This document shows, piece after piece, positions 22,925 through 61,325 of a stretch of DNA of 64,000 nucleotides. The DNA is taken from positions 1-64,000 of the forward strand of contig JBBIGR010000005.1 in assembly GCA_037447435.1 (NCBI GenBank), in the 5' to 3' direction. Numbering within the stretch: the stretch's first letter is position 1; every line of letters begins with the position of its first letter. The notes below the pieces were generated by a model. That model made no database searches. It worked only from the letters and a program-made list of their open reading frames with translations, and had not been told where the DNA came from. Made by a program: the position numbers and the translations under genes. The DNA is from Fibrobacteria bacterium (GTDB lineage: Bacteria; Fibrobacterota; Chitinivibrionia; Chitinivibrionales; FEN-1185).

Positions 22925-22939
22925 CTCATTTGCCTTCCA

Positions 22940-24189: not shown

Positions 24190-24808
24190 AACCAACCTCC
24201 TTATCGATTGTTGCAATTATGGACGAGAGTACCGCTTCGACCTTTCCACATGTCAATGTCGCCCCGCTGATCCCGTCGATTTCATTGGATGCTTTTGCGC
24301 CGGTTCGTTTTATCTTGATTCCGGGTTTTCCAAAATCATCCCGAATTTTTTTTCCGATAAATTCGTTCTGAAACCTTTCTGTGCCGATTTCACCGCCCAA
24401 ACCCGGAGTCTCCTCATTTTGATAAAACGAAATGCGACGAATGGTCACCATGTCGGTGTCGAGAGCAATAAATCCTTTAATCAAGCCCCATACCCCGCCG
24501 CCGGAAAATCCTATGGCGATTGCAAGCACTTTCGACGAATCGACGCTGTCGCACGAAACATACATTTGCAAATCGCCTTTTTTACGCAACTTAACCTTAC
24601 TTTCAAACTGTGCGACGAGTTGCCGGGAAGTCGCGCCTTGAGCAACGGGAATATCCAGCACATGCATAATGTTGCGAACCTCTTCGGCACGGGCATTAGC
24701 TTCACGATACGGTGCGGTAAACTCCCCGACGGTCGTGGGAACAAGCGCACAGACGACGCCAAGCATAAACGCATAAAATATCGTGTAAAGATTACGCTTC
24801 ATTTTCAA
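24179..24808 (-). CDS. nqrC: Na+-NQR subunit C (FMN-binding)
   Basis: G.GVWG.I, ETPGLGGEI, DGISGATLT. Confidence 0.88.
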   Translation of the reverse strand: MKMKRNLYTIFYAFMLGVVCALVPTTVGEFTAPYREANARAEEVRNIMHVLDIPVAQGATSRQLVAQFESKVKLRKKGDLQMYVSCDSVDSSKVLAIAIGFSGGGVWGLIKGFIALDTDMVTIRRISFYQNEETPGLGGEIGTERFQNEFIGKKIRDDFGKPGIKIKRTGAKASNEIDGISGATLTCGKVEAVLSSIIATIDKEVGFGK

Positions 24809-25880: not shown

Positions 25881-25881
25881 T

Positions 25882-27270: not shown

Positions 27271-27305
27271 GGATTTCCTTCTTTGCGTTGGGTCTTATAT
27301 ACCCA

Positions 27306-28778: not shown

Positions 28779-29128
28779 GAATGAATTGCACTTAGCAACC
28801 GATCCGGCGAAACCGGTTTTTCAAGGATTCCGACGTCAAATCCCCGATCTTTAAAATACGGCCTCACCATTTCGCCGAGCGAGGTCATAAGAATTACCGG
28901 AACGCGGGGAAAACGATTTTGAAGCAGTTCGAATGCGATAAGCCCAGAATCCTGCTCCTCGATCATTGCGTCCAAAAGTATCAAGTCGAATTCATCCTGG
29001 TCTAAAGCAGGAAATACATCGCCCAATGTCCGTACACTCGTGACGTAAAAGCCCTCTCTTTGTAACACGGCGCAAACCATGGTCCCGATATCCGGATCAT
29101 CATCGACATGCAAAATCCTTTTCGACAC
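28751..29128 (-). CDS. Single-domain response regulator
   Basis: ILHVDDD, DLILLD, TS, EKP. Confidence 0.9.
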   Translation of the reverse strand: MSKRILHVDDDPDIGTMVCAVLQREGFYVTSVRTLGDVFPALDQDEFDLILLDAMIEEQDSGLIAFELLQNRFPRVPVILMTSLGEMVRPYFKDRGFDVGILEKPVSPDRLLSAIHSCTMNATRK

Positions 29129-29149
29129 ACACCCTCCAAAGCATCTTAC

Positions 29150-30094
29150 TTATAATGCTTTCAATCCACCGTATTGCACATGGAGAACCGGAAAAAAATC
29201 GTTTTTCAAATAAACCGATAAATTGGTCTGGAATTCCGGCCATTCGCCAAGCAATGCTACCGCATCGTTACAAAGAGACTCGATAAGATTAACCAATCGA
29301 TCATCGTTTTCCCGCGCATCGTTTGCCAAGGTATACTTCCTTCGCAATCTATCGGTACCCAAGGTTTTTTTGTTGGCATCCGGATCGCCTTTTTCATCTA
29401 TCAAATCATCGGCAAGTTGATATGCGGTACCGATTATATAGCCGACTTCTTCAAGGGCGACGCGAAGCCGCAGGTCCGGACCGCAACAAAGAGAGGCACC
29501 GAATCCGAACAAAGGCCCTGTTTTGCCTCGTGCGATTTTAATGCAATCTTCTTTATTGAGAGTTTTCCCCCGATAAATAAGTTCTTGCTGTATTTCGGCC
29601 GAGCAAGTCTCATGCATTTTTTCGATAAATCCCGCTATTTGCGACGCATCGCCTTTTTTTGTAAGAAGGTCTATAGCTGCACAAAGATATAGGTCGCCGA
29701 TAAGTATTGAACCGCTTGTCGATGTTTGGCGCCACAAACTCGGCTCACCCCGTCGCATTTCACCGACATCGATGACATCATCATGAAAAAGAGTGGCAGC
29801 ATGAACGAGTTCGATAGCGGCGCATGCATTTGCAAGCATTTCCCTGTCAAATGATATTGTTTTGTTTTCTGAAAGCCGCTGAACCAATAGCGTACGGAGC
29901 ATTTTTCCGCCGGCAGGATTCCCGTTTTGCAATTTGATATGACGAAAGCTTTTTTCATTGATAAACCACCGATGCAGAATATCCTTTACCAAGATGACGA
30001 GTTCAGCGTCCGACGAAGCGTATGAGGCCTCGCGGTGACCGGAATCGGTATTTTGAATATTTTTCGGCGAATCAATTACGATATTTTCAACCAT
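29150..30094 (-). CDS. Polyprenyl diphosphate synthase
   Basis: GGKMLR, ELVHAATLFHDDVID...RRG, KTG.LF, YQLADDLID. Confidence 0.9.
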   Translation of the reverse strand: MVENIVIDSPKNIQNTDSGHREASYASSDAELVILVKDILHRWFINEKSFRHIKLQNGNPAGGKMLRTLLVQRLSENKTISFDREMLANACAAIELVHAATLFHDDVIDVGEMRRGEPSLWRQTSTSGSILIGDLYLCAAIDLLTKKGDASQIAGFIEKMHETCSAEIQQELIYRGKTLNKEDCIKIARGKTGPLFGFGASLCCGPDLRLRVALEEVGYIIGTAYQLADDLIDEKGDPDANKKTLGTDRLRRKYTLANDARENDDRLVNLIESLCNDAVALLGEWPEFQTNLSVYLKNDFFPVLHVQYGGLKAL

Positions 30095-30208
30095 TGTTGT
30101 TCCTTTGGTCAATTTTCAATGTTACGATACCCCAACCGACATATAAACCGGAACATCCCTTGATGTTTTAACTAATTGGCAAGCAGTATCTAACATCACA
30201 GGGATTAT

Positions 30209-30618: not shown

Positions 30619-31989
30619 TTGTTTACTCGTATGAAATTTAAGGGAAAACCAGTTACCGCCCGAGCCATTTTATTGGCAGCATGCATAATTATCGCTGGAG
30701 GCATACTACTCCTTTTCGGCACTCTCGAAATCACTTCCCAACCCATTTTTTGCAGTTCGTGTCATTATATGAAACCGTATTACAAGCAATGGAAAGCATC
30801 TTCGCATAATAAAGTGAATTGCCTCGATTGCCACTCAAAACCGGGATTCACTAATTATCTTAAAAGAAAATTCGCCGCATTACATGAAGTTGCGTCCATG
30901 GTTACCGGCAAATACCCTCCTCGCCCGCATGCGGAAGTGGACGATGCATCATGCCTCCGGCAGGGTTGCCATGAAACGAGACTTCTCAAAGGTAAAGTTT
31001 CTTTCAAAGGCATTTCATTCGACCATACGCCCCATTTGACCCAAGAAAGGCGCGGTCGAAAGCTTCGATGCACGACGTGTCATGCGCAAATGGCCATGGG
31101 CCGCCACATTGCGGTAACCGAAGAGGTTTGTTTCCTGTGTCACTTCAAGGACAGAATGCAAACACCGGAAGCTTCGACATCGGCATTTTGCTTGAAATGC
31201 CACAAGGTCCCTGACACGGCAGTAACAATCCGAAATACCAAAGAAACGTTTACGCATACCGATTATGTCAAGGGTAAAGTCCAATGCCAAGATTGTCATA
31301 CAGGAATCATTCGCGGAGACGGAAAAGTTCCAAAAGTCATGTGCTTTCAATGCCATAACAAACCTGAAAACCTTGAAAAATTCGACGATATCCCGTTTAT
31401 CCATGAAAACCATATTACAAAGCATAAAGTTGAATGCTATTTATGCCATACTGAAATTGAACATTCCATTTATCCGAAAGACCATGGCGAGCAAGCTCCT
31501 TCCACGCCTGCCTCCTGTACCCGTTGTCACGGCAATGGCCATCTTGCATCCCAATTGCTATATAAAGGAATTGGGGCTAGAAATGTAGCCGGGGTTACAA
31601 GCAGCATGTATCGCGCTCATGTTTCATGTACCGCTTGTCATAGGATAACACCCCAAGATACCGTATCGTTTGCAACCGGTACGCATTTTCCAAAAGCCGA
31701 CCAAACCGGATGTGCGCTTTGCCACGGCTCGGATGGTGCATCGTATTATCAAGATTGGAACGGTCAATTAAAAACAGCCTTATCGGCTGCCGACGCGGCA
31801 CTTGGTCACGCAAATTCAAATCGTCCGCAAATTGAGAAAGACTCTGCCGCTTCCAAAAAATTTGCAGATGCCGAATACAATATCCGATTTGTAAAAGCAG
31901 GCAAAGGAATACACAACATTGAATATTCTGTTGCAATTCTTGAAAATGCGACAAAAAATCTTCAAGGGTTATCGCAGGGTAAAAAGTAA
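30619..31989 (+). CDS. Membrane-anchored NapC/NrfH-type multiheme cytochrome c (11 CxxCH + 1 CX4CH)
   Basis: N-terminal TM then TSQPIFCSSCHYM...W..SSH..V.C.DCH, as in NapC/NrfH; 12 heme motifs. Confidence 0.88.
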   Translation: MFTRMKFKGKPVTARAILLAACIIIAGGILLLFGTLEITSQPIFCSSCHYMKPYYKQWKASSHNKVNCLDCHSKPGFTNYLKRKFAALHEVASMVTGKYPPRPHAEVDDASCLRQGCHETRLLKGKVSFKGISFDHTPHLTQERRGRKLRCTTCHAQMAMGRHIAVTEEVCFLCHFKDRMQTPEASTSAFCLKCHKVPDTAVTIRNTKETFTHTDYVKGKVQCQDCHTGIIRGDGKVPKVMCFQCHNKPENLEKFDDIPFIHENHITKHKVECYLCHTEIEHSIYPKDHGEQAPSTPASCTRCHGNGHLASQLLYKGIGARNVAGVTSSMYRAHVSCTACHRITPQDTVSFATGTHFPKADQTGCALCHGSDGASYYQDWNGQLKTALSAADAALGHANSNRPQIEKDSAASKKFADAEYNIRFVKAGKGIHNIEYSVAILENATKNLQGLSQGKK

Positions 31990-32147
31990 CATTGTTTTTC
32001 CCAAGCAAGTCAATTTATTGCCTTATTTGGGAAAAATTCTCCGAACAGATTAATTTTCAATGGGTGATGCAATGATTTTTAATCCGGATGATTTATTTTT
32101 GATTGCAAAACCCTTTGTTTTCTTTATAATTTTACTTGCATAATGAA

Positions 32148-32163
32148 TGGCATGGGTTTTGCA
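32148..32163 (+). promoter_or_regulatory. sigma54 promoter of the lipoprotein cytochrome gene
   Basis: TGGCATGGGTTTTGCA. Confidence 0.75.
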
Positions 32164-32263
32164 ATATTCATCAACTTGTGATATTTTTAGCATAATATTT
32201 CCATTTTTTGTAATTTTGATCTAAAACCTATAAATTTTCATCTACACTATTCAGGAGGCTCTT

Positions 32264-33445
32264 GTGAAATTTGGAAGAAGAATTGGCTTGTATGTGTTGG
32301 TATTCAGCTCTCTATTATTGACCACGACTGGATGCCTGCAGGGACCGACCGGTGCGGCTGGAAAAGATGGAAAAAGCGTTACCGACACTATTTATATCAA
32401 AGACACACTGCTGACCAGAGACTCCAGTTTCATTCGCGATTCAATTATGACCATGACCACTTGCTCGCAATGCCATTTCAATAATCAATTGATTGTTTCA
32501 AAGCAATATGAATGGGAAATGACCAAGCATGATACCGGAACGACATGGGTCGGCGAAGGTTCCAACGCAGCATGCATAGCCTGTCATAACGGTAATGCTT
32601 TTATTTTCAAGCTTTCCTCGGCGGATTCGGCCAATGTAATGGCAAATCCGACAAATGCGAATTGCCGCACGTGCCATAAAATTCATACAAAATACGACAC
32701 TACCGATTTCGCACTTGTCGGCGATGAACAACGCGTTGTATCAAAGAATAACAGTAATTTAACATTCCCCGATTACGGCGCAGGAAACCTGTGCGTGAAT
32801 TGTCACCAACTCCGTACGAATTTCCTGGAAGACGTCAAGGCGGGAAAAGGAGTCGAGGGAATCAATCCGAACAATTCGATTACTTCGACTGCCGTTATGG
32901 TTGGAACGGATTCGGTCAAATTTACGGCCACAGCAAGTCGTGCCAGCATGCATTATGGAGCGCAGGCCGAAATCGTTGCCGGTGCCGGCTTATATCTGCC
33001 GAACGGCGGAGCATCATTGAATCTTCCTTCTGCTCATAGAACAGCCATTGCCGACGGTTGCGTCGATTGCCATATGGGATCAACGAGGGTTCACACCTAT
33101 CAACCTCAGGCATCATCCTGCGCTTCGGCATCCTGCCATCCCAGCTCAATCGTCGGTCCTCGAGGCAAATTCGACATCGACAGCGTACAAACAAAAACAT
33201 TGGTTCTCGCAAAACAAGTCCGCGACTCCTTGGTTTCAAGAAAGATCGCCACCTGGGATACGACTAAAGTCTGGCCCGATCCTACCGGTCTTGGCTTCGG
33301 CGGCAAAGGGAAGACCTTCCCCGTCAGCGTCGTTGGCGCATATCTCAACTTGGGAGTGATTTTATGGGACGGAAGCAAGGGCGTTCATAATCCGAAATTT
33401 GTCAACGGCCTGCTTACCGGTTCCATTGCAGATTTAAAAAAATAA
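32264..33445 (+). CDS. Lipoprotein multiheme cytochrome c (5 CxxCH + 1 CX4CH)
   Basis: Lipobox TTGC, collagen-like GPTGAAGKDG, heme motifs, C-terminal DGSKGVHNP; AGGAGG RBS. Confidence 0.88.
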   Translation: MKFGRRIGLYVLVFSSLLLTTTGCLQGPTGAAGKDGKSVTDTIYIKDTLLTRDSSFIRDSIMTMTTCSQCHFNNQLIVSKQYEWEMTKHDTGTTWVGEGSNAACIACHNGNAFIFKLSSADSANVMANPTNANCRTCHKIHTKYDTTDFALVGDEQRVVSKNNSNLTFPDYGAGNLCVNCHQLRTNFLEDVKAGKGVEGINPNNSITSTAVMVGTDSVKFTATASRASMHYGAQAEIVAGAGLYLPNGGASLNLPSAHRTAIADGCVDCHMGSTRVHTYQPQASSCASASCHPSSIVGPRGKFDIDSVQTKTLVLAKQVRDSLVSRKIATWDTTKVWPDPTGLGFGGKGKTFPVSVVGAYLNLGVILWDGSKGVHNPKFVNGLLTGSIADLKK

Positions 33446-33466
33446 CCATCGCGATTGCGAAGTTTT

Positions 33467-33502
33467 AGAGGCTTCCCCGTTTCAGGGGAAGCCTCTTTTT
33501 TT
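33467..33502 (+). terminator. Rho-independent terminator
   Basis: AGAGGCTTCCCC-GTTTCA-GGGGAAGCCTCT followed by a T-run. Confidence 0.9.
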
Positions 33503-33532
33503 AAAATCCTTATCCGTAAAACTGGGGCAACA

Positions 33533-34315
33533 ATGATCGGTATTTGTCGGATTTGTATTGTTTTCTTTCTTATGTTTTTTTGGGGATGCAAAGGCACACA
33601 AAAAACAAACGACCAAATTGGCAAAGTAAAAAGGGATACCGTCATTAAGGTTTGCCCAATGCAAGCTGGTTCGAATGCAATTTCAGGTGCCGGTTTTTCG
33701 GGCATTGTCAAAGAGATCATTAGTACCGCGGGGTACACGTATGCACTCATTGACACAGGTAAATCCAAAGTATGGGCGGTTGCCCCCGGTGCTGCCGTTA
33801 AGGCCGGAGATACTGTTACCGTTTCCGGCGTCATGCCGATGGAAAATTACAAATCTAAGACATTGAACCGCACCTTCGATTTCGTGTATTTCGCCGGATC
33901 TATTGCCCGAAATGGCGAACAGAGAAAAAGACCGGTTTCGCCTTCCCCGCATTCGACCAATTCGTCGACCATTGTTCCGATGGCAAAGTTGGATTTTTCA
34001 AAGATAAAGAAACCTTTACACGGGGTAACAATCGCGGATATGTATACGCAAAAAGACGCTTTGATAGGAAAAAAAGTCGTTTTTGCCGCCAGGGTTGTCA
34101 AAATTACATATGCTATTTTAGGAAAGAATTGGCTGCATGTGCAGGACGGAACCGGCGATGCGGGCTCAAATGATTTAACGGTAACGACCGTGGACAACAG
34201 TAGTCCCGGCAATACCGTGATCGTTGAGGGTACCCTTGCGAAAGATAAAAAAATCGGCAATGGCGATACGTATGGTGTAATAGTTGAAAATGCAAAACTC
34301 ACAGCAGAGAAATAG
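33533..34315 (+). CDS. NrfJ-like two-OB-fold lipoprotein
   Basis: Lipobox FWGC; GYTY......WA, SKTLNRTF..VYF, ILGKNWLHVQDGTG. Confidence 0.65.
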   Translation: MIGICRICIVFFLMFFWGCKGTQKTNDQIGKVKRDTVIKVCPMQAGSNAISGAGFSGIVKEIISTAGYTYALIDTGKSKVWAVAPGAAVKAGDTVTVSGVMPMENYKSKTLNRTFDFVYFAGSIARNGEQRKRPVSPSPHSTNSSTIVPMAKLDFSKIKKPLHGVTIADMYTQKDALIGKKVVFAARVVKITYAILGKNWLHVQDGTGDAGSNDLTVTTVDNSSPGNTVIVEGTLAKDKKIGNGDTYGVIVENAKLTAEK

Positions 34316-34351
34316 ATGGAAATTCATCTTTTGAAAGAATGATGATTCATC
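34315..34351. promoter_or_regulatory. Tandem motif B sites
   Basis: GATGGAAATTCATC (34315) and AATGATGATTCATC (34338). Confidence 0.5.
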
Positions 34352-34413
34352 TTGGTTTTGTATAACGAAAGAATAATTCAGCCTTTTTTGATAATTTTAA
34401 GACCATAGCCCCT

Positions 34414-34429
34414 TGGCATAGTTGTTGCA
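34414..34429 (+). promoter_or_regulatory. sigma54 promoter of the porin-cytochrome operon
   Basis: TGGCATAGTTGTTGCA. Confidence 0.75.
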
Positions 34430-34514
34430 TATATAGTATGATCGAATTAAATTTTATTTATCGCGCTCTGTGCGGCGAATAATTAGCCCTTTAGACCTAT
34501 TCCAGGCATTATTA

Positions 34515-35735
34515 ATGATCAAGTTTATCCATTTTTCCGTTTTGGCGATTTTTATTTTTTTAATCGGAAACGTATACCCAACGTCATTGGATGTTGTTCT
34601 TGACAACTCGTTCAATGCCCGAAAGAACCTTATCGATTCGTCTGCGAAAACGTATACGTATGCTGAAGCGTTAAGCGTCAATCTGCTCAAATTGGGATCA
34701 ACGGATATTTCGTTTTATTCCGACCTTGGGCTTTCGAATACATTTCTCGACACTGCGCATAAACAATTTGACCTCCGTACTTTTTATATAGACGTTCCTG
34801 CATCCGCAAACTTCGATGCGAAAATAGGGCGTCAATTGTTTTGCGACTTGTCGTCAAGAAATGTTTGTCTTGATGGTGCAAAGTTCCAATACGATTTTCC
34901 CCAACAAGCGAAGCTGCATGGTTACGTCGGTGAACCGGTTCCGTCGGTTGATGGAAAATCCTTTGTCAGGCATGATCTGCACCTTCTTCAGGAAGGCTTC
35001 GGAGCCGATGTGGCGCTGGACCGCTCGACATGGATCGGTTTGCAAACCGCCTATCTCCCCGATACCGGCGGAGCAAAAGAAAGAATTCCGGTTTGCGGAT
35101 ATGTGGATTCCCGTCTGTCTAAAAATCTTAATTTGAAAATGAATGCAAATTACGACATGTCGGCAGAGTCAATGGAAGAATATGGCGTTTCGTTAAGCGG
35201 AAGAACATCGGCTCATTTGCAATGGAGAGTTTTTGCGCTCGGCGGAAACCGTGCAATAGATTCTATGAATGCCTATGAAAAGCTTGTGCTTGGAACCTAT
35301 AACGATGTCGGCGTTCAAATCGGCTATAACGACCGAAAGAATTATGTTCGGGGTTACTATTCGTTACGATCATTGGAAAACGGCAGCGATCATTTAGCCG
35401 GTATTGCAGCCTCTTTCTTCGGCGTATTTCTCGATCTCGAAACCGGTAGCGGAATTAGCGGCAATAGCGTCAAGACTTCAGCCGGTTATTGCCGGAATAT
35501 CTTAGAACTGCTTCAAGGCGGCGCTTCGGTTTCGTATTATGTATTCAGTCTGAGCCAAAATCCCTCGCAAGAGCATTCGATAACGACTCGTGCCTATGTG
35601 AACTGGTTAATCCCCACGCTCGGACTTTCGGTATCCCCTGAAATTCAATATTTGTCCAATCAATATTATCATAAAGACATTCGATTCCAAATCAATGCTC
35701 AGTATCAATATCTTTCTTTCTGGAAATCTAAATGA
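34515..35735 (+). CDS. Putative outer-membrane beta-barrel (porin of a porin-cytochrome complex)
   Basis: Signal peptide; many alternating aromatic/hydrophobic strands (AKIGRQ, LKMNANYD, VQIGYN, FQINAQYQY); no internal TM helices; stop overlaps the decaheme start. Confidence 0.65.
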   Translation: MIKFIHFSVLAIFIFLIGNVYPTSLDVVLDNSFNARKNLIDSSAKTYTYAEALSVNLLKLGSTDISFYSDLGLSNTFLDTAHKQFDLRTFYIDVPASANFDAKIGRQLFCDLSSRNVCLDGAKFQYDFPQQAKLHGYVGEPVPSVDGKSFVRHDLHLLQEGFGADVALDRSTWIGLQTAYLPDTGGAKERIPVCGYVDSRLSKNLNLKMNANYDMSAESMEEYGVSLSGRTSAHLQWRVFALGGNRAIDSMNAYEKLVLGTYNDVGVQIGYNDRKNYVRGYYSLRSLENGSDHLAGIAASFFGVFLDLETGSGISGNSVKTSAGYCRNILELLQGGASVSYYVFSLSQNPSQEHSITTRAYVNWLIPTLGLSVSPEIQYLSNQYYHKDIRFQINAQYQYLSFWKSK

Positions 35736-36460
35736 GACTAGAACTACTTGCCGTTTTCGCCTTTTTCACGCTCGCTCTCGGTAATTCGGGCCCTCCCGAC
35801 ACGCTTAAGTTTTCCCATAAGTCGCATATACAGGATATCGGCGCGCGGTGCATCGACTGTCATGTTACTTTATCGGATAAAGGCAAGCCGGCCAAAGCAC
35901 CAATTGTTTCGGAAGCGACCTGCAAAAAGTGTCATGACAATAAAACAGCGGACTTTGCATGTAACGTCTGCCATACGAATTCCGGTAATGTGACGCCAGG
36001 AAAGCCGACGTCTCTCGCAACAAGATTCCCGCATGCCAAGCATTTGGATTCTTCGGCGACTTGCACGCCCTGCCATCTGGGAGTTGAATCCGTTGCAATC
36101 GCAGACAAAAAGAATTTTCCGACCATGAAAACCTGTCAAACATGTCACGATGACCGTAAAGCACCTTCTTCGTGTGCTGTTTGTCATATTGATCTTGCGG
36201 CCATAAAACCGGTCACCCACGACGGCCAATGGCTTGAAGTCGGCGGACACGGGTATCAAGCTCGTTTCCCCGGAGCCGAATGTTCAAATTGCCATCAAAC
36301 ATCGTATTGCAATCAATGTCATCAAGGAAATACTCCGGTCAAGATTCATTCACCCGGCTATGAATTTGAGCATGGTCTCGATGTAAAGCAAAAAACTATG
36401 GATTGTACCGTTTGTCACGAAGCGTCAAGCATGTGCCTCCGTTGTCACGGGGGTAAATAA
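35732..36460 (+). CDS. Periplasmic decaheme cytochrome c
   Basis: Signal peptide; 10 CxxCH in 242 aa; c3-like FSH..H and FPH..H motifs. Confidence 0.9.
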   Translation: MRLELLAVFAFFTLALGNSGPPDTLKFSHKSHIQDIGARCIDCHVTLSDKGKPAKAPIVSEATCKKCHDNKTADFACNVCHTNSGNVTPGKPTSLATRFPHAKHLDSSATCTPCHLGVESVAIADKKNFPTMKTCQTCHDDRKAPSSCAVCHIDLAAIKPVTHDGQWLEVGGHGYQARFPGAECSNCHQTSYCNQCHQGNTPVKIHSPGYEFEHGLDVKQKTMDCTVCHEASSMCLRCHGGK

Positions 36461-37353
36461 TGAGCTTTAAAAAAATCATTGTTTTTGTAGGACTCGTTGC
36501 CGCGTTTACAGGCTGTTCCAGCCTCAATGACAACATTGCGGTGGTATCTGCAAATAAATGCAGAGCTTGCCACGCACTTCCTCCCGCCGATCTTGTGCAT
36601 ACTGCCCATGTCGACACAATGCATTACTCGTGCGAAATTTGCCATAAAGGGGCTAGCGACAGCTTACAAACCGTTTCAAAAGGCCACAGTTTAGGAGTCG
36701 TGCAAGTTCATATATCTTCCGCATTCGACCCGAACGGTACGGCCACTTACGACCCCGTAAAAATGACCTGCAACATGATTTATTGCCATGGGAATTTCGT
36801 TGCGGGCAATTTGGGGACCGTCAAAACAACGGACATGGTTACCGGTTGCAGTTTTTGCCATGCGACTCCCCCGGTAGACCGTATGCATTCTGCCCATATA
36901 GATACCATGCATTATGCGTGCGTTTTGTGCCACATAGGCGCCGGAGAGACGCAATTATCGGCTGATGCCAAAAAGCTCCATGTCAATGGTATTGTCGACG
37001 TGCAAATCAAATCATCCTTTGACACAACCGGTAAAGCGTATTACGATAATAGCAAGAAAACATGTAACCTCGTCTATTGCCATGGTGCCGTTGTACCGAA
37101 AGATTCCGGAATTGTCAATATTCAGGACACCGTTACCGGTTGCGGGTTCTGTCATGACCTTAACAAATTAAGACTTGTCGACCATCACGACTCCTTAAAA
37201 TTGCCTATCAAAACTTTTTATAAGTGCGGCCTGTGTCACCCTGGATATGATCTGGCGACAAAAAAAACCAATGACGCCCTTCATATCAATGGCCACATCG
37301 ATGTCGCCGGTTGCGATCAATGCCATGAGTTACGAACATGGATAAGGAAATGA
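36460..37353 (+). CDS. Lipoprotein nonaheme cytochrome c with CxxxxCH/CxxCH repeats (7 CxxCH + 2 CX4CH)
   Basis: Lipobox FTGC; TCNMIYCH and TCNLVYCH plus H.NG..DV segments, as in Geobacter-type CxxxxCH...CxxCH domains. Confidence 0.88.
   Translation: MSFKKIIVFVGLVAAFTGCSSLNDNIAVVSANKCRACHALPPADLVHTAHVDTMHYSCEICHKGASDSLQTVSKGHSLGVVQVHISSAFDPNGTATYDPVKMTCNMIYCHGNFVAGNLGTVKTTDMVTGCSFCHATPPVDRMHSAHIDTMHYACVLCHIGAGETQLSADAKKLHVNGIVDVQIKSSFDTTGKAYYDNSKKTCNLVYCHGAVVPKDSGIVNIQDTVTGCGFCHDLNKLRLVDHHDSLKLPIKTFYKCGLCHPGYDLATKKTNDALHINGHIDVAGCDQCHELRTWIRK
36559..37140 (+). repeat. Intragenic tandem duplication (96 and 98 codons, plus a partial third unit)
   Basis: CH..PP.D..H.AH.DTMHY.C..CH...S.FD..G.A.YD....TCN..YCHG...VTG occurs twice. 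Confidence 0.85.
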
Positions 37354-37354
37354 A

Positions 37355-40150
37355 GTGCCTGGAACAATCGAGGATTCAATTGTTTCTATGAAATCGATTG
37401 GATCCGGGCGCGAACGATTGAACCCTGTTCACAATGTTTTCCTTATTGTCACTTTTATTTTCTTAAGTGCAAACGCCCGGTTCGTCGATAGTCCCGCCAC
37501 ATGCCTTGAGTGCCATAAAGACAATACCCTTGTTTCCGAAAAAAAACCGAAAAAGTCATTGTTTGTCGATAAAAGCATTTTAGAAAATTCGATCCATGCG
37601 AAACTGAATTGCGTCGATTGTCATGTTGATGCCGATGTTGAAGACTTTCCCCATCCATCGCTTAAAGCCGCAAAATGCGACAAATGCCATTCGGTCGAAG
37701 TCAACGACTATTCCTTAAGCCGTCACCAAAATGCCGTAAACAAAAACAACCCCAAAGGTCCGGGCTGTTCCACCTGCCACGGGACGCACGATATTCTGTC
37801 CAATAAAGATTTAAATTCCCCCACGTATGTCCTAAACATCAATCAATCTTGTCTTAAATGTCATGGCGATAAAACAAAGCCGTCTTCGGAACAGGAAGAT
37901 TTTTCCGACCGAATTCATGGAAAAGGTGAAAAACAACACTTAAAAGTTACCGCCGTGTGCACGAATTGCCACAACAGCCATGATGTGCTCCGCCATACCG
38001 ATAGAAATTCGCCTACCAGCCGTGGGAAGCTCGTTTCGACCTGTTCCGTTTGCCATGCCCAAATAGAAGATTTACATAAAAAAATCGTATCGGTTGGAAA
38101 TACGATGTCCGGCTCGCCCAAGCTCCCCGAGTGCGGCGGTTGTCATGCGCTCCATGCCAAACGGAAAGTCTTTCCCGACGAAACATTCTCCGACGACTAT
38201 TGTCTGAATTGTCATAGTACGGCAAACAACAAAAGTCATATGATACAAGACAATTTGCGGGTAAACATGTCGGAAATAGACAGTTCCGCCCACAAAAACC
38301 TGCATTGCATCGAATGTCATTCGAACGTCGCTAAAAACCACGATCCCGTATGCGAAAAAAGCGGTAAAGTAAACTGTGCGACTTGTCATTCGAAAGTCGT
38401 TTCCGTCTATAATACCAGTATTCACGGCGTTCTGCACGCAAACGGTGAAAATGCTGCCCCGGTTTGTACCGATTGTCATGGGACGCATGCGACCAGGAGC
38501 AAAAACGATCCTGCATCTCCGGTCTCGCGATTGAATGAAATTATGCTATGCGGTCAATGTCACAAGGAAGGCGGAAAGGCGGAAGTGCGCAATCCGCAAA
38601 CAAACGGATTGTGGGAAAAATATACCCGCAGTATTCATGGGCAAGGTGCCATTAACAGCGGCCTGGTCGTCACCGCGGTCTGCACCGATTGTCATTCGAC
38701 GCATGGCGAACGCAAAGCAAGCGACACCCTATCAACCGTCAACAGAACCAAGATCGTTAAAACATGCGCTCGTTGTCATCAGGGAATTTATGAAAAATTT
38801 TCAGCCAGCGTTCATAGTCCGCTTATTACCAAAACAACGAAAACGCTTCCGGTTTGTTCCGATTGCCATCCGCTGCACAATATTTCCCGGGTTACCGACG
38901 ATGCATTTCGCCAACAAATTTTGGCGCAATGCGGAAAATGTCATATTGACGTATCTGAAACTTATTTTGAAACGTATCATGGTAAAAAATCCCGGCTCGG
39001 GTCTAATCATGCGGCGAAATGTTCGGATTGTCATGGATCGCATACCATATTTGCCCTTTCCGACCAACGATCGACACTTTCCAAAGCGAACATTGTCGCG
39101 ACGTGTAAGAAATGCCATCCTGGTTCAAACAAAGGGTTCACCGGGTATTTGCCGCATGCCACGTATCAGGATAAACACAAGTATCCGGTTCTTTTTTATT
39201 CCTTTTGGAGCATGAGCGCATTGCTTTTTGGGACATTCGGCTTTTTCGGGCTTCACACCATTTTATGGATTCCACGGTCCATTCGGGAACGTTTAAAACG
39301 TCGTCCGAACAGTATCGAATTGAATGGAAAATGGGTTAAACGATTCCCCGCATATTACCGGGTTTTGCATGTTTTTGTCATAATTTCATTTTTAGGGTTG
39401 GCATTGACCGGTATGGCATTGAAATTTTCCGATCAGAATTGGGCAATCGCGATTTCCCGATTCCTGGGAGGTATATATGTAAACGGGTTTATTCACCGCC
39501 TTTGTGCGATTATCACCTTCGGTTATTTCAGCGCGCATCTTATTGAACTTTTTGTTCGAATGAAACGGGAAAAACAAAAATTCGTCGACTTTGTTTTTCT
39601 CAAAGACAGCATGATCCCGACCTGGCGCGATGCGAAAGAATTTTGGCAAAGTATTTTGTGGTTTACAGGTTTTGGGCCCCGACCGGCGTACGGCAGGTGG
39701 ACGTATTGGGAAAAATTCGACTATTTCGCCGTATTTTGGGGCGTTATGATTATAGGTTCGACAGGTCTTATGTTATGGTTCCCGGAATTTTTTACCCGGT
39801 TCTTACCCGGATGGTTTATTAACATTGCCACTATCATTCATAGTGACGAAGCGCTTCTTGCCGTCGGCTTTATTTTCACCATACATTTTTTCAATACGCA
39901 TTTCAGACCCGATAAATTTCCAATGGATATGGTGATTTTTACCGGTCGAGTTCCCTTCGAGGTTTTTTCTGAAGAACGGCCTCGAGAACTTGAAGAATTA
40001 AAATCACAAAACCGACTTGATAGCATGTTTATGGAGCCCCCCTCAAAAAAATTAATTCTCATTGCGCGTGTTTTTGGAATATCGGCTTTAGTCACAGGAT
40101 TACTGCTTGCCGGTTTGATTATTTGGACTATGGTGTCGAAACTTTTTTAA
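37355..40150 (+). CDS. CbcL-like multiheme cytochrome c / cytochrome b fusion (19 CxxCH)
   Basis: 19 CxxCH, then a membrane domain with [41 protein letters not shown]; exact start uncertain. Confidence 0.88.
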
Positions 40151-40321
40151 ATCATGGATAAAACGTCTTGCGATGGAATCGGGTATAAAACATATTGATC
40201 AAATCCGGGCCAAGGTAAAATATTGATACCTATATTCACGTATTCAGTTTGCTCATTATGATAAAAATTGCTGCAAACTGCATACATACATTAATTTCTT
40301 CATTTTTGCAGGAGGATGTGT

Positions 40322-40870
40322 ATGCGTTTATTGACTAGTGTCTTGGTTCTTTTTATGGCCGGCAGTCTTTTTGCCGATTCAAACTATATCGGTGCCGACA
40401 AATGCGCCAAGATGTGCCATAAAAGCAAGGCTAAGGGTGATCAGCTTTCGATATGGAAAGAAAGCAACCATGCCAAAGCTTACAGTGTTTTGGCAACTCC
40501 TGCAGCTCTTGAGACTGCAAAAAAGGTCGGTTTGACAGGCGATCCTCAGAAATCAGACAAATGTCTTAAATGTCACGTGACTGCATTCGGTGTCGATGCG
40601 TCTCGTTTGGATTCGACCTATAGCAAAGAAGAAGGTATTAGTTGTGAAGCATGCCACGGAGCCGGAAGCGGCTATGCAAAACTCAAGATCATGAAAGACA
40701 AGAAAGCTGCGATTGCTGCCGGCCTTGCCATTCCTGATGAAAAAACATGTGTAAAATGTCATAATACCGATTCACCGAATTATAAGAAATTTAATTTTGC
40801 AGAAATGGTAAAGAAGATTGCTCATCCTACGCCGAAGCAAGCTGAAACTAAAGAAGGCGAAGCAAAGTAA
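40322..40870 (+). CDS. Cytochrome c554-family tetraheme (3 CxxCH + 1 CX3CH)
   Basis: Signal peptide; YIGADKCAKMCH, W..S.HAKAY, CLKCHVT, EGISCEACHGAGS, CVKCH. Confidence 0.88.
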   Translation: MRLLTSVLVLFMAGSLFADSNYIGADKCAKMCHKSKAKGDQLSIWKESNHAKAYSVLATPAALETAKKVGLTGDPQKSDKCLKCHVTAFGVDASRLDSTYSKEEGISCEACHGAGSGYAKLKIMKDKKAAIAAGLAIPDEKTCVKCHNTDSPNYKKFNFAEMVKKIAHPTPKQAETKEGEAK

Positions 40871-40992: not shown

Positions 40993-42372
40993 ATGATAAA
41001 AAGATTTATTAACTTGCTCGGTTCAGTACAGGTTATCGTACCGCTTCTTATCGTCATAACAGTGGTTTCTCTCGCCGGCGTCATTGTACCTCAAAGTTTA
41101 CCGACAGCCCAATACCTTCAAATCATGCCCGGATGGAGAAGCTCGATTATTCTCCAACTTGGACTTGATCATATTTTTTCCACATGGTGGTTCTACACGC
41201 TCTTGGGAATATTGGCTGTCAATGTCGTGGCTTGTTCATTGACACATCAGGTGAAAAGCCTGAAAAACGCCGGCGCCATGCGGTTTCTCCAAAAACCCGA
41301 CGATGCAAATCGCCTAAAATGCTCTGTATCTTTTGAGGTGGATGGCGCACAGATTAATGCTGTGGAAACCATAACGGGATTTATGAAACGCCGCATGTTT
41401 TTTTGCTCAAATCAAACCAAAGAAAATGTCACTCAAATCGCGGCGAGGTCTCCCCGGCTTAAAGAAATCGGCTCGCTGATGTTCCATTTAAGCATCCTTT
41501 TCTTTTATGTCGGCGGCATTGTGAGTACTATGGGCGGGTTTTCATATGTTAAAGAGCTATGTTCCGGCGACGTGGTTGGAGTCCAAAATTGGCCCTACCG
41601 GATACGATGCGACGGTTTCAAGGTGGAAAGAAACCAGGACGGAGCTGTTTCATCGTACAAATCCAATTTAACAGTACTGTCGGCCGATTCGACCCAACTG
41701 TTGAAAAAAGTCGTTGAAGTCAATCATCCGCTTGCTTTTGCCGGTGTCAATTTTTATCAAAACAGCTACGGAGAACAATCGGGAAGTTTTGAAGTTGCAA
41801 GTCTGCAGGTTTTTGGCCCTCAATTCGATACAAGCGGCTACATGACCGCCGCTTCCTTAAATACGCCGGTGACGCTCCCCGGTAACGGCATAACTTTGAC
41901 CGTTTCCCGATTTATCTCGGATTTCATCATCGACATGCAATCCGGCGAAGCGACATCCCGTTCCGACAGGCCGAATAATCCCGCTGTCAAGGTTACATTG
42001 ACCAGGGGGGCCGATACGTTGTACAGCGGCTGGGCTTTTGAGAATTACCCCGACGTTCATCAGGAATCAAAAAAAGACTATAAAGTCGTTTTTGTCGGCT
42101 ATGAACCCCGTTATTATACCGGCATCAAGATTTCCCATAACCCCGGCAATCCATTCATCTGGTTTGGTTTTGCTTTCATGACATTGGGAATTTTCCTCGT
42201 GTTTTATTTTCCGCATCGGAATTATTGGATTTTCATCGGGCAGGGAAATAACCGGAAGGTTATTGTGACCGTCGGCGGTGCATCGAGCCGCTCGGCATCG
42301 GCATTTCAGGCAGAATTTAACCATAGTTGCGATTCTTTGAAACGTGTACTGAAGGAGGGATCTTCATCGTGA
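40993..42372 (+). CDS. resB: Cytochrome c biogenesis protein ResB/CcsB (System II)
   Basis: G.IVPQ, IFSTWWF, HLS, VEVNHPL..G..FYQ.SY, NPG....W.G. Confidence 0.9.
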   Translation: MIKRFINLLGSVQVIVPLLIVITVVSLAGVIVPQSLPTAQYLQIMPGWRSSIILQLGLDHIFSTWWFYTLLGILAVNVVACSLTHQVKSLKNAGAMRFLQKPDDANRLKCSVSFEVDGAQINAVETITGFMKRRMFFCSNQTKENVTQIAARSPRLKEIGSLMFHLSILFFYVGGIVSTMGGFSYVKELCSGDVVGVQNWPYRIRCDGFKVERNQDGAVSSYKSNLTVLSADSTQLLKKVVEVNHPLAFAGVNFYQNSYGEQSGSFEVASLQVFGPQFDTSGYMTAASLNTPVTLPGNGITLTVSRFISDFIIDMQSGEATSRSDRPNNPAVKVTLTRGADTLYSGWAFENYPDVHQESKKDYKVVFVGYEPRYYTGIKISHNPGNPFIWFGFAFMTLGIFLVFYFPHRNYWIFIGQGNNRKVIVTVGGASSRSASAFQAEFNHSCDSLKRVLKEGSSS

Positions 42373-43202
42373 ATATTTTTGCTCAAAATTCTATCGAATT
42401 CACTTTTTTCTGGTGGGCTTTTATTGCGTACTCAGCATCGTGTCTTTTGTACGTAGCCTATTTTCCTATTTCAAAAAAATGGCTCGCCACCTCGGCTTCG
42501 ATCGCAATGGCAATCGGATTGTTGATGCAAACACTGGCAATGATTGAACGGACCGTTCATATCCATCATATGCCTCTCACGAACATGTTCGAATACATAA
42601 GCCTGTTCGCCTGGTTTGCGACCTGTTTCTATTTTGTATTCCTCCGGGTTTACAAGTTACATTTACTCGGTGCGGTTATTTCCTTCACCGTCTTCATGCT
42701 AATGGTTGCCGGATCATTATTGCCCAAAGACGCTGAAATGCAACTTGTTCCTGCATTGCAAAGCTATTGGCTTCAAATTCACGTATCGGTAGCATCTTTG
42801 GGTGAAGCTGCGTTTTTAGTCGCATTTGCGGCCAATATCCTTTACTTCCTAAAAACCGGAATGTCCAAAACGTCTGCATTCGCCTCTCGATTGCCCGATG
42901 CCCAGACACTCGATCGTATTGCATACAAAGCCATCACGGTCGGTTACCCTTTGTTTACCATCGGTGCGTTGTTTGCCGGCGCAATTTGGGCGGAACAAGC
43001 GTGGGGCAGTTTTTGGAGCTGGGACCCTAAAGAAGTAGGTTCTTTGATCGTATGGTTGATTTATTCCGCATACCTTCATGCCCGATTTGTCAAGGGATGG
43101 ACGGGTTCGCGGGCCGCGATTCTCAGTACGACGGCGTTTACTTGTACCTTGCTTACGTTTTTCGCAAACCTTATTCTCGGAGGTCTGCACGCATACGGCT
43201 AA
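42369..43202 (+). CDS. ccsA: Cytochrome c synthase CcsA/ResC (System II)
   Basis: PLTNMFE, LVPALQSYWLQIHV, WWD domain GAIWAEQAWGSFWSWDPKE, GLHAY; GTG start overlaps the resB stop. Confidence 0.93.
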   Translation: MNIFAQNSIEFTFFWWAFIAYSASCLLYVAYFPISKKWLATSASIAMAIGLLMQTLAMIERTVHIHHMPLTNMFEYISLFAWFATCFYFVFLRVYKLHLLGAVISFTVFMLMVAGSLLPKDAEMQLVPALQSYWLQIHVSVASLGEAAFLVAFAANILYFLKTGMSKTSAFASRLPDAQTLDRIAYKAITVGYPLFTIGALFAGAIWAEQAWGSFWSWDPKEVGSLIVWLIYSAYLHARFVKGWTGSRAAILSTTAFTCTLLTFFANLILGGLHAYG

Positions 43203-43323
43203 TCCCGACGGCTATCGGCCTCCTCAAATGGATCGGGTTACTGAATTCGCAGCATCTCGGGTTTGCCGAACCGTTATATTGTAGCTTCCGAATGGAAAAA
43301 TTACCGAAGAGGTCGGCCTTGCA

Positions 43324-44130
43324 ATGACACATATTTTTTCCGAAATTATCCGGATTGTTATTCCGGTTGCTTACTTTGCGGTATCGGTAAGCTTTATCGT
43401 CGCATTCACGAAGAAACAACAATTGTCTTCTGTTTGGCCGTCACTTTTTCTTGCAATTGGTCTTTTTGCCCATACCTGCCTGCTGATCAATATTCTCATT
43501 GCAAACGGATATTATCTTATAGAAACCCCTTTTGAAGGGCTTGCATTCTGCGGCTGGTTTTTTATCGTCGCTTCAACCTTGCTGGTGTATAGGCAAAAAG
43601 AAGCAAGTTTCGGTGCGTTCCTTTTTCCCGCCGGCTTTGTCGTATCGACCCTGGCCGTTATTTTTATCAGCCAAGGTCCTCACCTGCCGAAATTTCTCTT
43701 GTCGCAACCATTCATGGCTCATACGTGGATATTGTTCGGTTCGTATGCATGTTTTCTGCTTTCCGCCATTATCTCGATTATGTATCTGGTACAACATCAC
43801 CTGATTCGATCCCGTTCACTGGGTTCGGTATACGAACGTCTTCCGGCACTCGAGGTCATGGATCAGGTTATCATGAACTGCGATGCCGTTGGCGCGGCTT
43901 TGTTGATTATCGGCATTGTTATGGGTTTTCTTCTTATGAATTCGGCAATAATCAGACCTCCGAATTTGAACATCAAGATTTCATTCGCCATGCTTGCAGC
44001 CGTAACGTACGCCTGCGAACATATTTTACGAGTCGGAATCGGATGGAAAGGTCAACGGGCCTGTTTCGTTTCGATTTTCGGGTTTGTACTCATCATGATC
44101 ACCCTGTTGTCGGGGCGCCATGGATTCTAA
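43324..44130 (+). CDS. HemX-like / CcsA-related membrane protein
   Basis: About 8 TM; H...., MYLVQ...., RLPALE.MD, GWKG.R, terminal H.F; lacks the WWD motif; directly upstream of hemA. Confidence 0.75.
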   Translation: MTHIFSEIIRIVIPVAYFAVSVSFIVAFTKKQQLSSVWPSLFLAIGLFAHTCLLINILIANGYYLIETPFEGLAFCGWFFIVASTLLVYRQKEASFGAFLFPAGFVVSTLAVIFISQGPHLPKFLLSQPFMAHTWILFGSYACFLLSAIISIMYLVQHHLIRSRSLGSVYERLPALEVMDQVIMNCDAVGAALLIIGIVMGFLLMNSAIIRPPNLNIKISFAMLAAVTYACEHILRVGIGWKGQRACFVSIFGFVLIMITLLSGRHGF

Positions 44131-56345: not shown

Positions 56346-56396
56346 TTTCCCCGACACGATTCTTGAACAGCGTTCCTGCAAACAATTCAAGTATTC

Positions 56397-56410
56397 TTGA
56401 TCCAAATCAA
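56397..56410. promoter_or_regulatory. FNR/DNR-type box
   Basis: TTGAT-CCAA-ATCAA, an exact TTGAT-N4-ATCAA, 57 bp upstream of the ygbA-like start. Confidence 0.65.
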
Positions 56411-56467
56411 TTTTATACATTCATAATTTATGTAATTTAATTATTATCGTACGGAGGTCAATAAATC

Positions 56468-56815: not shown

Positions 56816-56979
56816 AAAGTTCTTTTTTTCACAAATGGAATATTTTATATTTATACGGATGCATCATTGTTTCATTCTCCGCTTTTACTTCGGAAGACAT
56901 GTTGCAACTTGATGGTTTATGAATGATATTCTTTTTTGATCATGACGCTTTATTTATAGAAACCGATAAGTACTTCTAA

Positions 56980-60836: not shown

Positions 60837-60841
60837 CGCAA

Positions 60842-61312: not shown

Positions 61313-61325
61313 AACAGGAACACCA

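What the first reader, a model, noticed from the sequence alone, without database searches (positions are those of the whole stretch)
30619..40870. Complete candidate extracellular electron transfer conduit with 60 heme motifs and an unfamiliar porin
Seen: six cytochromes with 12, 6, 10, 9, 19 and 4 motifs. The core operon is tightly coupled: beta-barrel, periplasmic decaheme, lipoprotein nonaheme, CbcL-like protein. Two cytochromes have lipoboxes. Known: porin + periplasmic multiheme + lipoprotein multiheme is the layout of MtrCAB and Geobacter Pcc/Ext conduits. I do not recognise these proteins as MtrA/B/C; the ~400-aa barrel and the c3-like decaheme differ. Inference: a distinct porin-cytochrome family encoded in one operon with its own quinol oxidase, spanning inner membrane to cell surface.
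Basis: partly seen in the sequence, partly recalled or inferred. Interest (0 to 1): 0.87.

Follow-up and report, generated by a model that had tools for sequence, protein, structure and literature searches.

The report
Modular porin-cytochrome conduit in Fibrobacterota
A bacterium of the Fibrobacterota encodes six cytochromes with 60 heme-binding motifs around a predicted outer-membrane barrel that one of them is predicted to plug, likely forming an electron wire from the inner membrane to the cell surface in a group known for fermenting polysaccharides.

Summary
In detail: 55 CxxCH plus 5 CX3-4CH motifs make 60. Gene D folds as a 22-strand barrel with no plug domain (pLDDT 88). A complex model puts the four C-terminal hemes of decaheme E in its lumen (score 0.70, best control 0.01). 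Relatives are Chitinivibrionales/Fibrobacterota. The barrel occurs in 32 of 296 phylum genomes. In 31 loci with downstream context it is always followed by a multiheme cytochrome: 30 E-type, and 27 then have an F-type lipoprotein. The input module varies: a 19-heme/cytochrome b protein here, and a periplasmic [NiFe] hydrogenase, Rnf or a Qrc-like complex in relatives. In hydrogenase loci E's first domain becomes cytochrome c3-type. This is not Mtr. However, barrel size, atypical motifs and an in-cluster cytochrome b protein are all described for Geobacter-type Pcc clusters (PMC4245776). Homology to OmbB/ExtB could not be tested, so 'distinct family' is unproven. Verdict: a new variant of a known kind; function and direction are untested.

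The parts
30619..31989 (+). A: 12-heme cytochrome with one N-terminal membrane helix, a NapC/NrfH-type N-terminal region, c7/c3-like middle repeats and a helical C-terminus; likely a second quinol-active membrane cytochrome; probably its own transcript
   Evidence: PF03264 E 1e-16 over residues 16-99; TIGR03153 below cut-off; TM helix 16-34; homolog 44% identical in G006, about 7 kb upstream of the B homolog
32264..33445 (+). B: 6-heme predicted lipoprotein (Cys24, +2 Leu) of the OcwA/OmhA/NrfA-related group with a C-terminal three-helix bundle; candidate surface terminal reductase
   Evidence: Profile A4 best PDB hits 6I5B (OcwA, PMC6703420) E 4e-12 and 6QVM (S-layer undecaheme) E 2e-9, then NrfA; model confident only for helices 246-333 of the folded part, mean pLDDT 50; B homologs directly follow barrel-E-F in 5 loci, L035-L039
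33533..34315 (+). C: heme-free predicted lipoprotein (Cys19), 260 aa, no confident family; role unknown
   Evidence: no confident Pfam/NCBIfam match; Atlas neighbours 0.96, Bacteroidota clusters, PF13457 GW on 16-37% of members; homologs beside the cluster in G006, L034, L090, L096, L098
34515..35735 (+). D: outer-membrane beta-barrel, predicted 22 strands, no plug domain, N-terminal signal-like hydrophobic stretch
35732..36460 (+). E: periplasmic decaheme; two c7-type triheme domains, then a four-heme C-terminal segment (motifs at 184, 193, 225, 235) predicted to fill the barrel lumen
   Evidence: PF14522; profile hits 3OV0, PpcA and ActA over the N-terminal 160 positions only; complex score 0.70 vs best control 0.01, interface E residues 154-237, 20 of 22 strands touched
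36460..37353 (+). F: 9-heme predicted lipoprotein (Cys19, +2 Ser) with two CxxxxCH...CxxCH domains; likely the outer partner; heme number varies from 5 to 17 in relatives
   Evidence: TIGR01904 52.5 bits over cut-off 27; lengths and heme counts
37355..40150 (+). G: 19 c-heme periplasmic region fused to an FdnI/HydC-type cytochrome b membrane domain (CbcL-like architecture); likely exchanges electrons with menaquinone
   Evidence: PF01292 E 2e-4, TIGR01583 E 5e-5, both below cut-off; His634, 672, 714, 728, 829, 844, 849 invariant in G and 61 homologs; family widespread, 586 relatives among 602 scanned stretches
40316..40870 (+). H: periplasmic tetraheme of the cytochrome c554 type; likely shuttle
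   Evidence: PF13435 E 2e-17; homologs recur beside the barrel trio and beside G
40993..44130 (+). System II cytochrome c maturation genes: ResB, CcsB and a second CcsA-like gene; followed by heme-synthesis genes from 44120
   Evidence: PF05140, PF01578, TIGR03144 over cut-off; downstream ORFs read from translations

Best explanation
The cluster likely encodes a porin-cytochrome electron conduit: a predicted 22-strand outer-membrane barrel (D) is predicted to be plugged by the four C-terminal hemes of decaheme E and would pass electrons, likely taken from menaquinol by the 19-heme/cytochrome b protein G, to the likely surface-exposed lipoprotein cytochromes F and B and on to extracellular acceptors. 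Shown by sequence: genes, motifs, order and coupling. Predicted by models: the barrel fold and the E-in-D arrangement, which leaves E's two c7 domains in the periplasm. Inferred: G and A oxidise menaquinol; G's 19 hemes and tetraheme H bridge the periplasm to E; F caps the barrel outside; B is a terminal reductase; the acceptors are Fe(III) or Mn(IV) oxides, humic quinones or partner cells. The D-E-F core is the conserved unit across Fibrobacterota, and the input is exchangeable (G-type protein, periplasmic [NiFe] hydrogenase, Rnf with a tetraheme, or a Qrc-like complex). Outward flow would give a fermenter a sink for surplus electrons. I put the conduit itself at about 0.85 and outward flow, given a conduit, at about 0.75.
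For: Barrel fold: pLDDT 88, 22 strands; full-length structural matches to outer-membrane barrels. Complex model D+E: score 0.70, best of 3 controls 0.01; the mark was reached by 116 of 157 solved complexes and 2 of 215 mismatched pairs (counts hold only roughly with my own alignments); runs agree in at least 81% of contacts, partner pLDDT at least 71. The contacts are alternating residues on 20 of 22 strands, as expected for a lumen, and involve E's more conserved half (non-Cys/His column conservation 0.43 vs 0.32). Order: 31 of 31 barrel loci with downstream room are followed by a multiheme cytochrome, 30 E-type, 27 then F-type. The variable F beside a conserved barrel and periplasmic cytochrome parallels the Geobacter pattern of replaced outer lipoproteins (PMC6148476). 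B's best solved relatives are cell-surface cytochromes of iron reducers. The host has menB over cut-off and maturation genes beside the cluster. For outward flow: the inputs in relatives are electron-donating systems (hydrogenase, Rnf), and CbcL, which has G's architecture, feeds periplasmic cytochromes in Geobacter (PMC13591261).
Against: No experiment, expression data or cultured host. The complex pass may partly reflect likeness to the solved MtrAB complex, and it was folded without hemes. F and B were not modelled on the barrel, and surface exposure cannot be read from sequence. B's model is low-confidence (mean pLDDT 50), with no Foldseek match at E <= 0.001. G is only loosely tied to the barrel: 4 of 80 G-family loci have a barrel-profile hit. 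FdnI-type cytochrome b usually reduces quinone (recalled), and the host has a heme-copper oxidase, so inward flow is possible. The E and F profiles used were built from many of the same loci, so the E/F labels are partly circular; the adjacency is not. Input types fall on barrel clades (quick tree only), so they are few independent events.
Confidence: 0.65

Rival explanations
1. Same conduit, opposite direction: electrons from Fe(II), reduced humics, metals or partner cells enter through F and E and reduce menaquinone through G, feeding the oxidase or nitrite reductase.
For: G's membrane domain is of the formate dehydrogenase gamma / hydrogenase cytochrome b type, normally quinone reductases (recalled). 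The genome has a heme-copper oxidase and an NrfHA-like pair on C12 (my reading). Porin-cytochrome clusters with cytochrome b-like inner-membrane proteins were proposed for Fe(II) oxidisers (PMC5566968).
Against: CbcL with the same layout works outward. Relatives link the same core to hydrogenase and Rnf. B resembles the terminal reductase OcwA.
Confidence: 0.17
2. Not a surface wire: F and B face the periplasm, and the E-plugged barrel reduces soluble compounds (metal chelates, humics, sulfur or nitrogen oxyanions) at or within the pore.
For: Surface exposure was not testable. B is NrfA-related and OcwA reduces nitrite slowly (PMC6703420). In 4 of 31 loci no F-type gene follows E. The extHIJKL conduit is linked to selenite and tellurite reduction (PMC6148476).
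Against: The model fills the lumen with four hemes rather than leaving a channel. F carries the CxxxxCH domain (TIGR01904) and varies strongly in size, as described for outer partners. The +2 residues are Ser and Leu, not the Asp that retains lipoproteins in the inner membrane of E. coli (rule recalled; may not hold here).
Confidence: 0.13
3. On membership rather than mechanism: D and E are remote homologs of the described Geobacter-type Pcc proteins (OmbB/OmaB, ExtB/E, the Ignavibacterium cluster), so this is a new branch of a known family and not a distinct one. This is compatible with the best explanation.
For: Strand number, heme range, atypical motifs and in-cluster cytochrome b proteins all fall within the Pcc description, whose porins can be only 8% identical. 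The nearest Atlas clusters (0.98, no Pfam) are commonest in Myxococcota, Zixibacteriota and Thermodesulfobacteriota; the first and last hold described Pcc clusters. The repeat pattern of E's C-terminal half resembles my recollection of OmaB-type cytochromes (recalled, unverified).
Against: A full phmmer scan of 1.84 billion representatives gave only 22 hits at E <= 0.001; the named ones among the 28 looked up are Fibrobacteria, Chitinispirillaceae or unassigned 'bacterium'. That scan used one sequence, not a profile, so it does not exclude remote homology.
Confidence: 0.55
4. The cytochromes act mainly as an electron store or redox buffer, or the barrel imports heme or metal and its neighbours are incidental.
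For: The best structural matches are TonB-dependent receptor barrels. Heme synthesis genes are adjacent.
Against: D has no plug domain, identity to those receptors is 5-12%, and the match reflects barrel size. The barrel is followed by a multiheme gene in 31 of 31 loci, and the model places E in the lumen.
Confidence: 0.05

Closest known systems
Geobacter-type Pcc clusters: OmbB-OmaB-OmcB, ExtABCD, ExtEFG, and the Thermovibrio, Desulfurobacterium and Ignavibacterium clusters (PMC4245776, PMC6148476)
   Same: Porin with 18-22 strands, then periplasmic multiheme, then lipoprotein multiheme(s); atypical CX3-15CH motifs in the outer cytochrome; variable outer partner; some clusters include a cytochrome b-like membrane cytochrome; extEFG shares a transcript with a Hox-type hydrogenase.
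   Different: Host phylum (Fibrobacterota is not among the hosts listed in PMC4245776); E is two c7 domains plus a four-heme plug; the input module changes between relatives, with a c7-to-c3 change in E where a periplasmic hydrogenase precedes the barrel; sequence homology untested.
MtrCAB / MtoAB / PioAB (structure 6R2Q)
   Different: Barrel of 385 mature residues and 22 strands against 649 residues (28 predicted strands in PMC4245776); E is not DmsE/MtrA family and F is not MtrC family; only four hemes are predicted in the lumen.
CbcL of Geobacter sulfurreducens (PMC13591261)
   Same: Periplasmic multiheme c domain fused to a cytochrome b membrane domain (CbcL's b domain is recalled); G hits PDB 28PB_A, labelled only 'Cytochrome c', 278 aa, E 2.5e-6, which I suspect but did not verify is the CbcL domain.
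   Different: 19 c hemes against 9; G belongs to a separate, widespread 930-aa family and is translationally coupled to the conduit genes.
OcwA (6I5B) and the Carboxydothermus S-layer undecaheme (6QVM)
   Same: B shares the NrfA-type C-terminal helical bundle and heme region by profile.
   Different: B has 6 hemes, is a predicted lipoprotein in a diderm, and lacks OcwA's c554-like N-terminal part; H, a separate c554-type protein, is encoded nearby.
PCC3 and PCC4 (PMC5566968)
   Same: Porin, multiheme cytochromes and an inner-membrane cytochrome b-like protein in one cluster.
   Different: PCC3 porins are larger (up to 42 predicted segments) and the inner-membrane protein is a stand-alone 300-aa protein; PCC4 has no extracellular cytochrome.

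Membership tests
MtrCAB/MtoAB/PioAB | Barrel of the MtrB/PioB family, about 28 predicted strands | tested here: not met
   No Pfam or NCBIfam match for D at E <= 0.1; no MtrB-type match for 34 alignment members or 20-23 distant homologs (that these libraries hold an MtrB/PioB model is recalled); model has 22 strands
MtrCAB/MtoAB/PioAB | Periplasmic decaheme of the DmsE/MtrA family | tested here: not met
   E has no TIGR03508 match at E <= 0.1, although the model is in the library and weakly matches A, G and H
MtrCAB/MtoAB/PioAB | MtrC/MtrF-type decaheme lipoprotein | tested here: not met
   F (297 aa, 9 motifs) has no PF22113 match; B matches only below cut-off over a short stretch
Geobacter-type Pcc (Shi et al. 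2014) | Adjacent genes for porin, periplasmic multiheme and lipoprotein multiheme | tested here: met
   D-E-F overlap by 4 and 1 nt; order conserved in 27 of 31 loci
Geobacter-type Pcc (Shi et al. 2014) | Porin with 18-22 strands; periplasmic cytochrome with 5-14 hemes | tested here: met
   22 strands in the AF2 model; 10 motifs in E; ranges, where strand numbers come from a different predictor
Geobacter-type Pcc (Shi et al. 2014) | Sequence similarity (BLAST E < 0.01) to OmbB/OmaB/OmcB or to ExtB/ExtE | not testable with these tools
   No tool returned these sequences; Atlas feature neighbours are suggestive only
Geobacter-type Pcc (Shi et al. 2014) | [quoted passage not shown] | not testable with these tools
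   Lipobox-like Cys present; complex model covers D+E only
ExtHIJKL | Rhodanese lipoprotein in place of an outer cytochrome; pentaheme periplasmic cytochrome | tested here: not met
   No rhodanese match for any gene; F is a multiheme lipoprotein and E has 10 hemes
PCC3/PCC4 (He et al. 2017) | Stand-alone 300-aa inner-membrane protein with two WX3HX13H motifs | tested here: not met
   G is a 931-aa fusion; it has one HX13H pair (714/728) without the Trp and one HX14H pair (829/844)
CbcL | Nine-heme periplasmic domain fused to a cytochrome b domain; orthology to GSU0274 | tested here: inconclusive
   Same architecture, but 19 hemes and only sub-cut-off cytochrome b matches; no named CbcL sequence to compare; 28PB_A hit unnamed

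The most novel reading that the evidence does not exclude
D and E define a porin-cytochrome family of their own, spread through Fibrobacterota, in which one barrel-and-plug core is rewired to at least four electron inputs. In one version a periplasmic hydrogenase feeds a cytochrome c3 domain fused to the plug, so electrons from H2 leave the cell without touching the quinone pool. Polysaccharide fermenters would thereby respire minerals or humics, or hand electrons directly to partner cells.
Probability: 0.3. Interest if true: 0.8.

Novelty: new variant of a known kind. Interest (0 to 1): 0.57.

Why it matters
Fibrobacteraceae and Chitinivibrionia were described as lacking a respiratory chain (PMC4704652), and my searches found no paper linking the phylum to porin-cytochrome conduits. 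If the conduit works, primary degraders of cellulose or chitin could couple fermentation to iron or humic reduction, which bears on carbon flow and methane competition in anoxic sediments and soils. The barrel has no Pfam or NCBIfam model, so screens built on those libraries miss it. The small predicted core (385-residue barrel, 224-residue decaheme) and its natural input swaps (c7 versus c3 first domain) make a compact system for testing how conduits are wired. The caution is that porin-cytochrome clusters are common in under-studied phyla (280 earlier notes in this scan), so the architecture alone is not surprising.

Tried and rejected
Family scans of D and its homologs found nothing useful: only scattered weak barrel matches below cut-off. 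PDB sequence search with the barrel profile gave no hit better than E 0.46. No solved Geobacter Pcc porin appeared among the fold matches; that is inconclusive, not exclusion. The TonB-dependent receptor reading was rejected: no plug domain, 5-12% identity. Attempts to reach Geobacteraceae or other non-Fibrobacterota genomes for a homology test failed; plasmid searches with D and with E's C-terminal part had no match. A single-protein scan of genome contigs found no relative. The structure of B was low-confidence and its fold search had no match at E <= 0.001. Single-sequence PDB searches with F and B were uninformative. Distance correlations across 24 loci (D-E 0.71, D-F 0.66, E-F 0.49) do not separate E from F and are confounded by kinship; the careful tree did not finish, so only the quick tree was seen. 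Promoter-like (26 vs 27.9 expected) and terminator-like (14 vs 17.8) counts were at chance. The LAAC in protein A lies inside a membrane helix and was not counted as a lipobox. The futalosine family PF02621 was not found with this query. No RNA holder was listed. No earlier scan finding resembled this stretch by sequence or place. One supplement of PMC12545173 was unreadable and could list Fibrobacterota.

Full report
Observation. The region 30619-40870 holds eight co-directional genes: A (456 aa), B (393), C (260), D (406), E (242), F (297), G (931) and H (184). Six are cytochromes. Shuffles give at most 3-4 motifs. D, E, F and G overlap or abut (-4, -1, +1 nt); A, B, C and H are set off by gaps, so the tight operon is D-E-F-G. 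ResB, CcsB and a second CcsA-like gene follow, then heme-synthesis genes (read from translations).

Host. The window is contig C5 of a 5.05-Mb, 99.6% complete genome. Loci with barrel relatives are titled Chitinivibrionales or Fibrobacterota, and named distant homologs are Fibrobacteria and Chitinispirillaceae. The genome has menB over cut-off, a heme-copper oxidase subunit I, Nqr-like genes at 21833-27270 (below cut-offs), an NrfHA-like pair on C12 (my reading) and three secretin loci below the GspD cut-off. Its three [NiFe] hydrogenase loci look cytoplasmic or membrane-bound by my reading; the periplasmic large subunit of congeners matched only over 88-114 residues.

The plug. E's first 135 mature residues are two c7-type domains. 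Its last four hemes form two close CxxCH pairs with conserved Trp, Gly, Tyr and His residues, and no solved structure matched that part. The D+E complex model scored 0.70 against a best control of 0.01; this mark was reached by 116 of 157 solved complexes and 2 of 215 mismatched pairs, counts that hold only roughly for my own alignments; the runs share at least 81% of contacts and partner pLDDT is at least 71. The interface is E residues 154-237 against alternating residues on 20 of 22 strands, so the four C-terminal hemes sit in the lumen and the c7 domains stay outside it. The model supports binding but does not show it, had no hemes, and may draw on likeness to MtrAB.

Other parts. F has two TIGR01904 CxxxxCH domains over cut-off and a lipobox-like Cys19. 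B's profile matches OcwA (6I5B; PMC6703420) at E 4e-12 and the S-layer undecaheme 6QVM at 2e-9, ahead of NrfA; its own model is poor except for the C-terminal helices. G joins 19 c hemes to an FdnI/HydC-type cytochrome b domain with seven His invariant in G and 61 homologs. A has a NapC/NrfH-type N-terminus and one membrane helix. H is c554-type. C is a heme-free predicted lipoprotein without a confident family.

Distribution. The barrel profile matched 32 of 296 genomes of the phylum, G000 included; the largest family had 1 weak match in 151. I fetched loci from 28 of the 31 other genomes (not G135, G237, G247). One search listed 34 barrel ORFs; I dropped two at contig ends (L019, L129) and counted one split gene (L034) once. 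Of the 31 left, all are followed by a multiheme gene, 30 of them E-type, and 27 then have an F-type gene. The E and F labels use profiles built partly from these loci. F varies from 5 to 17 motifs, the pattern described for outer partners in Geobacter (PMC6148476). In five loci (L035-L039) a B homolog follows F directly.

Exchangeable inputs. G's cytochrome b domain is in 9 of 296 phylum genomes and in none of the 5 congeners. It is common elsewhere, but only 4 of 80 metagenome loci carrying it have a barrel-profile hit, one of them (L046) a close copy of this cluster. In G002-G005, G029 and G044 the barrel directly follows small and large subunits of a [NiFe] hydrogenase with a twin-arginine-like leader and no cytochrome b gene in between (families over cut-off). 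In these loci E's first domain is class III cytochrome c3: PF02085 is the top hit in 6 of 6 tested, while c7 is the top hit in 8 of 8 others. Cytochrome c3 is the usual partner of periplasmic hydrogenase in Desulfovibrio (recalled). One of those six, G024, had a c3-type E but a truncated upstream side; I predicted a hydrogenase and found both subunits before the barrel's 5' end on another contig. In G075-G079 the trio is followed by Rnf-like genes, with a tetraheme seen in 4 of 5 loci; the full rnfCDGEAB order was read in L030 only. In one family a pentaheme, molybdopterin-family, Fe-S and NrfD-like block lies upstream (tested on L039). These inputs fall on separate barrel clades in a quick tree, so they are few independent events.

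Mechanism. Most likely G, and perhaps A, oxidise menaquinol; hemes of G and H carry electrons across the periplasm to E's c7 domains; E's four-heme plug crosses the outer membrane inside D; and F and B deliver electrons to extracellular acceptors. Genes and order are shown, the fold and plug are predicted, and localisation, partners and direction are inferred. Outward flow is favoured because CbcL works that way (PMC13591261), B resembles a terminal reductase, and the alternative inputs are donors. In the hydrogenase version, periplasmic H2 oxidation with electrons sent outside would lower H2 and, combined with cytoplasmic H2 evolution, could move protons outward (inference). Inward flow to the oxidase and a periplasm-facing reductase remain possible.

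Comparison. It works like MtrCAB but fails each Mtr family test. It meets the architectural criteria of Geobacter-type Pcc. Shi et al. 2014 report 18-22 strands, 5-14 periplasmic hemes, atypical motifs in outer cytochromes and cytochrome b-like membrane cytochromes within pcc clusters. The defining test, similarity to OmbB/OmaB or ExtB/E, could not be run; the nearest Atlas clusters lie in phyla that include Pcc hosts. I put remote homology at about 0.55.

Literature seen. PMC4245776: parts 1-3 of 6 of the text. PMC7399161: passages and section 18. Passages only: PMC5566968, PMC12545173 (3 supplements searched, 1 unreadable), PMC13591261, PMC11495043, PMC6148476, PMC7829351, PMC6703420, PMC4704652, PMC11475568 (3 supplements searched), PMC11492766. 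Searches pairing Fibrobacterota, Fibrobacteres, Chitinivibrionia or Chitinivibrionales with porin, multiheme, extracellular electron transfer or hydrogenase returned 0, 0, 1, 0 and 1 papers; the passages I saw of those two papers describe no such conduit. The library lacks most subscription journals.

Verdict. A real and probably functional porin-cytochrome conduit, a new variant of a known kind. The additions are the host phylum, the predicted four-heme plug in a 22-strand barrel, and the exchange of input modules with a matching change in the decaheme.

Noticed in passing
G000:C24:1-5820 (minus strand): A second porin-cytochrome cluster in the same genome: 5-heme, 423-aa barrel (weak match to the D profile), 10-11-heme paralog of E (32% identical), 9-heme predicted lipoprotein, 7-heme, and a membrane protein cut by the contig end. 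Related clusters in G291 (L034) and G006 (L129); the L034 barrel aligns to the D profile at probability 96.7.
   Followed up: partly
L013:6058-11763; also L012, L014, L015, L016, L025, L126: Periplasmic-type [NiFe] hydrogenase small and large subunits run directly into the barrel-E-F trio with no cytochrome b gene, and E gains a c3-type first domain.
   Followed up: yes
L030:283-12004 (G077); similar in L027, L028, L029, L031: Barrel-E-F followed by a membrane-anchored tetraheme and rnfCDGEAB, then a c554-type tetraheme and ResB/CcsB: an Rnf complex apparently wired to an outer-membrane conduit.
   Followed up: partly
window 33533-34315 and G000:C5:67122-67964: Heme-free predicted lipoprotein C has a 39% identical paralog just before heme-synthesis-like genes, and homologs recur beside multiheme clusters; a role in cytochrome assembly or heme handling is a guess.
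   Followed up: partly
window 1073-4491: TmcC-like anchor, HmcB/HybA-like Fe-S protein and an HmcC/HybB-like membrane protein fused to a 6-heme domain: an Hmc-like membrane redox complex (all below cut-offs).
   Followed up: no
window 21833-30112 (minus strand) and 55884-64000: Nqr-like operon, a two-component pair and a polyprenyl diphosphate synthase lie divergently from the cluster; Nuo-like genes lie downstream. The whole window is a respiratory island.
   Followed up: no
G000:C60:792-4408: Heme-copper oxidase operon in this Chitinivibrionales genome.
   Followed up: partly
L034:6646-7880 (G291): The barrel gene is split into two overlapping ORFs; sequencing error or real break not determined.
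   Followed up: no
L032:5722-11275 (G078) and L026:7286-10513 (G242): Very large cytochromes upstream of the barrel: 27 CxxCH plus 12 atypical motifs in one, 22 motifs in the other, which has two barrel-E-F trios in tandem.
   Followed up: no
L046-L125: The 19-heme/cytochrome b protein is a conserved family of about 930 aa, with roughly 5000 matching stretches estimated in the metagenome collection and no dedicated family model among my hits.
   Followed up: partly
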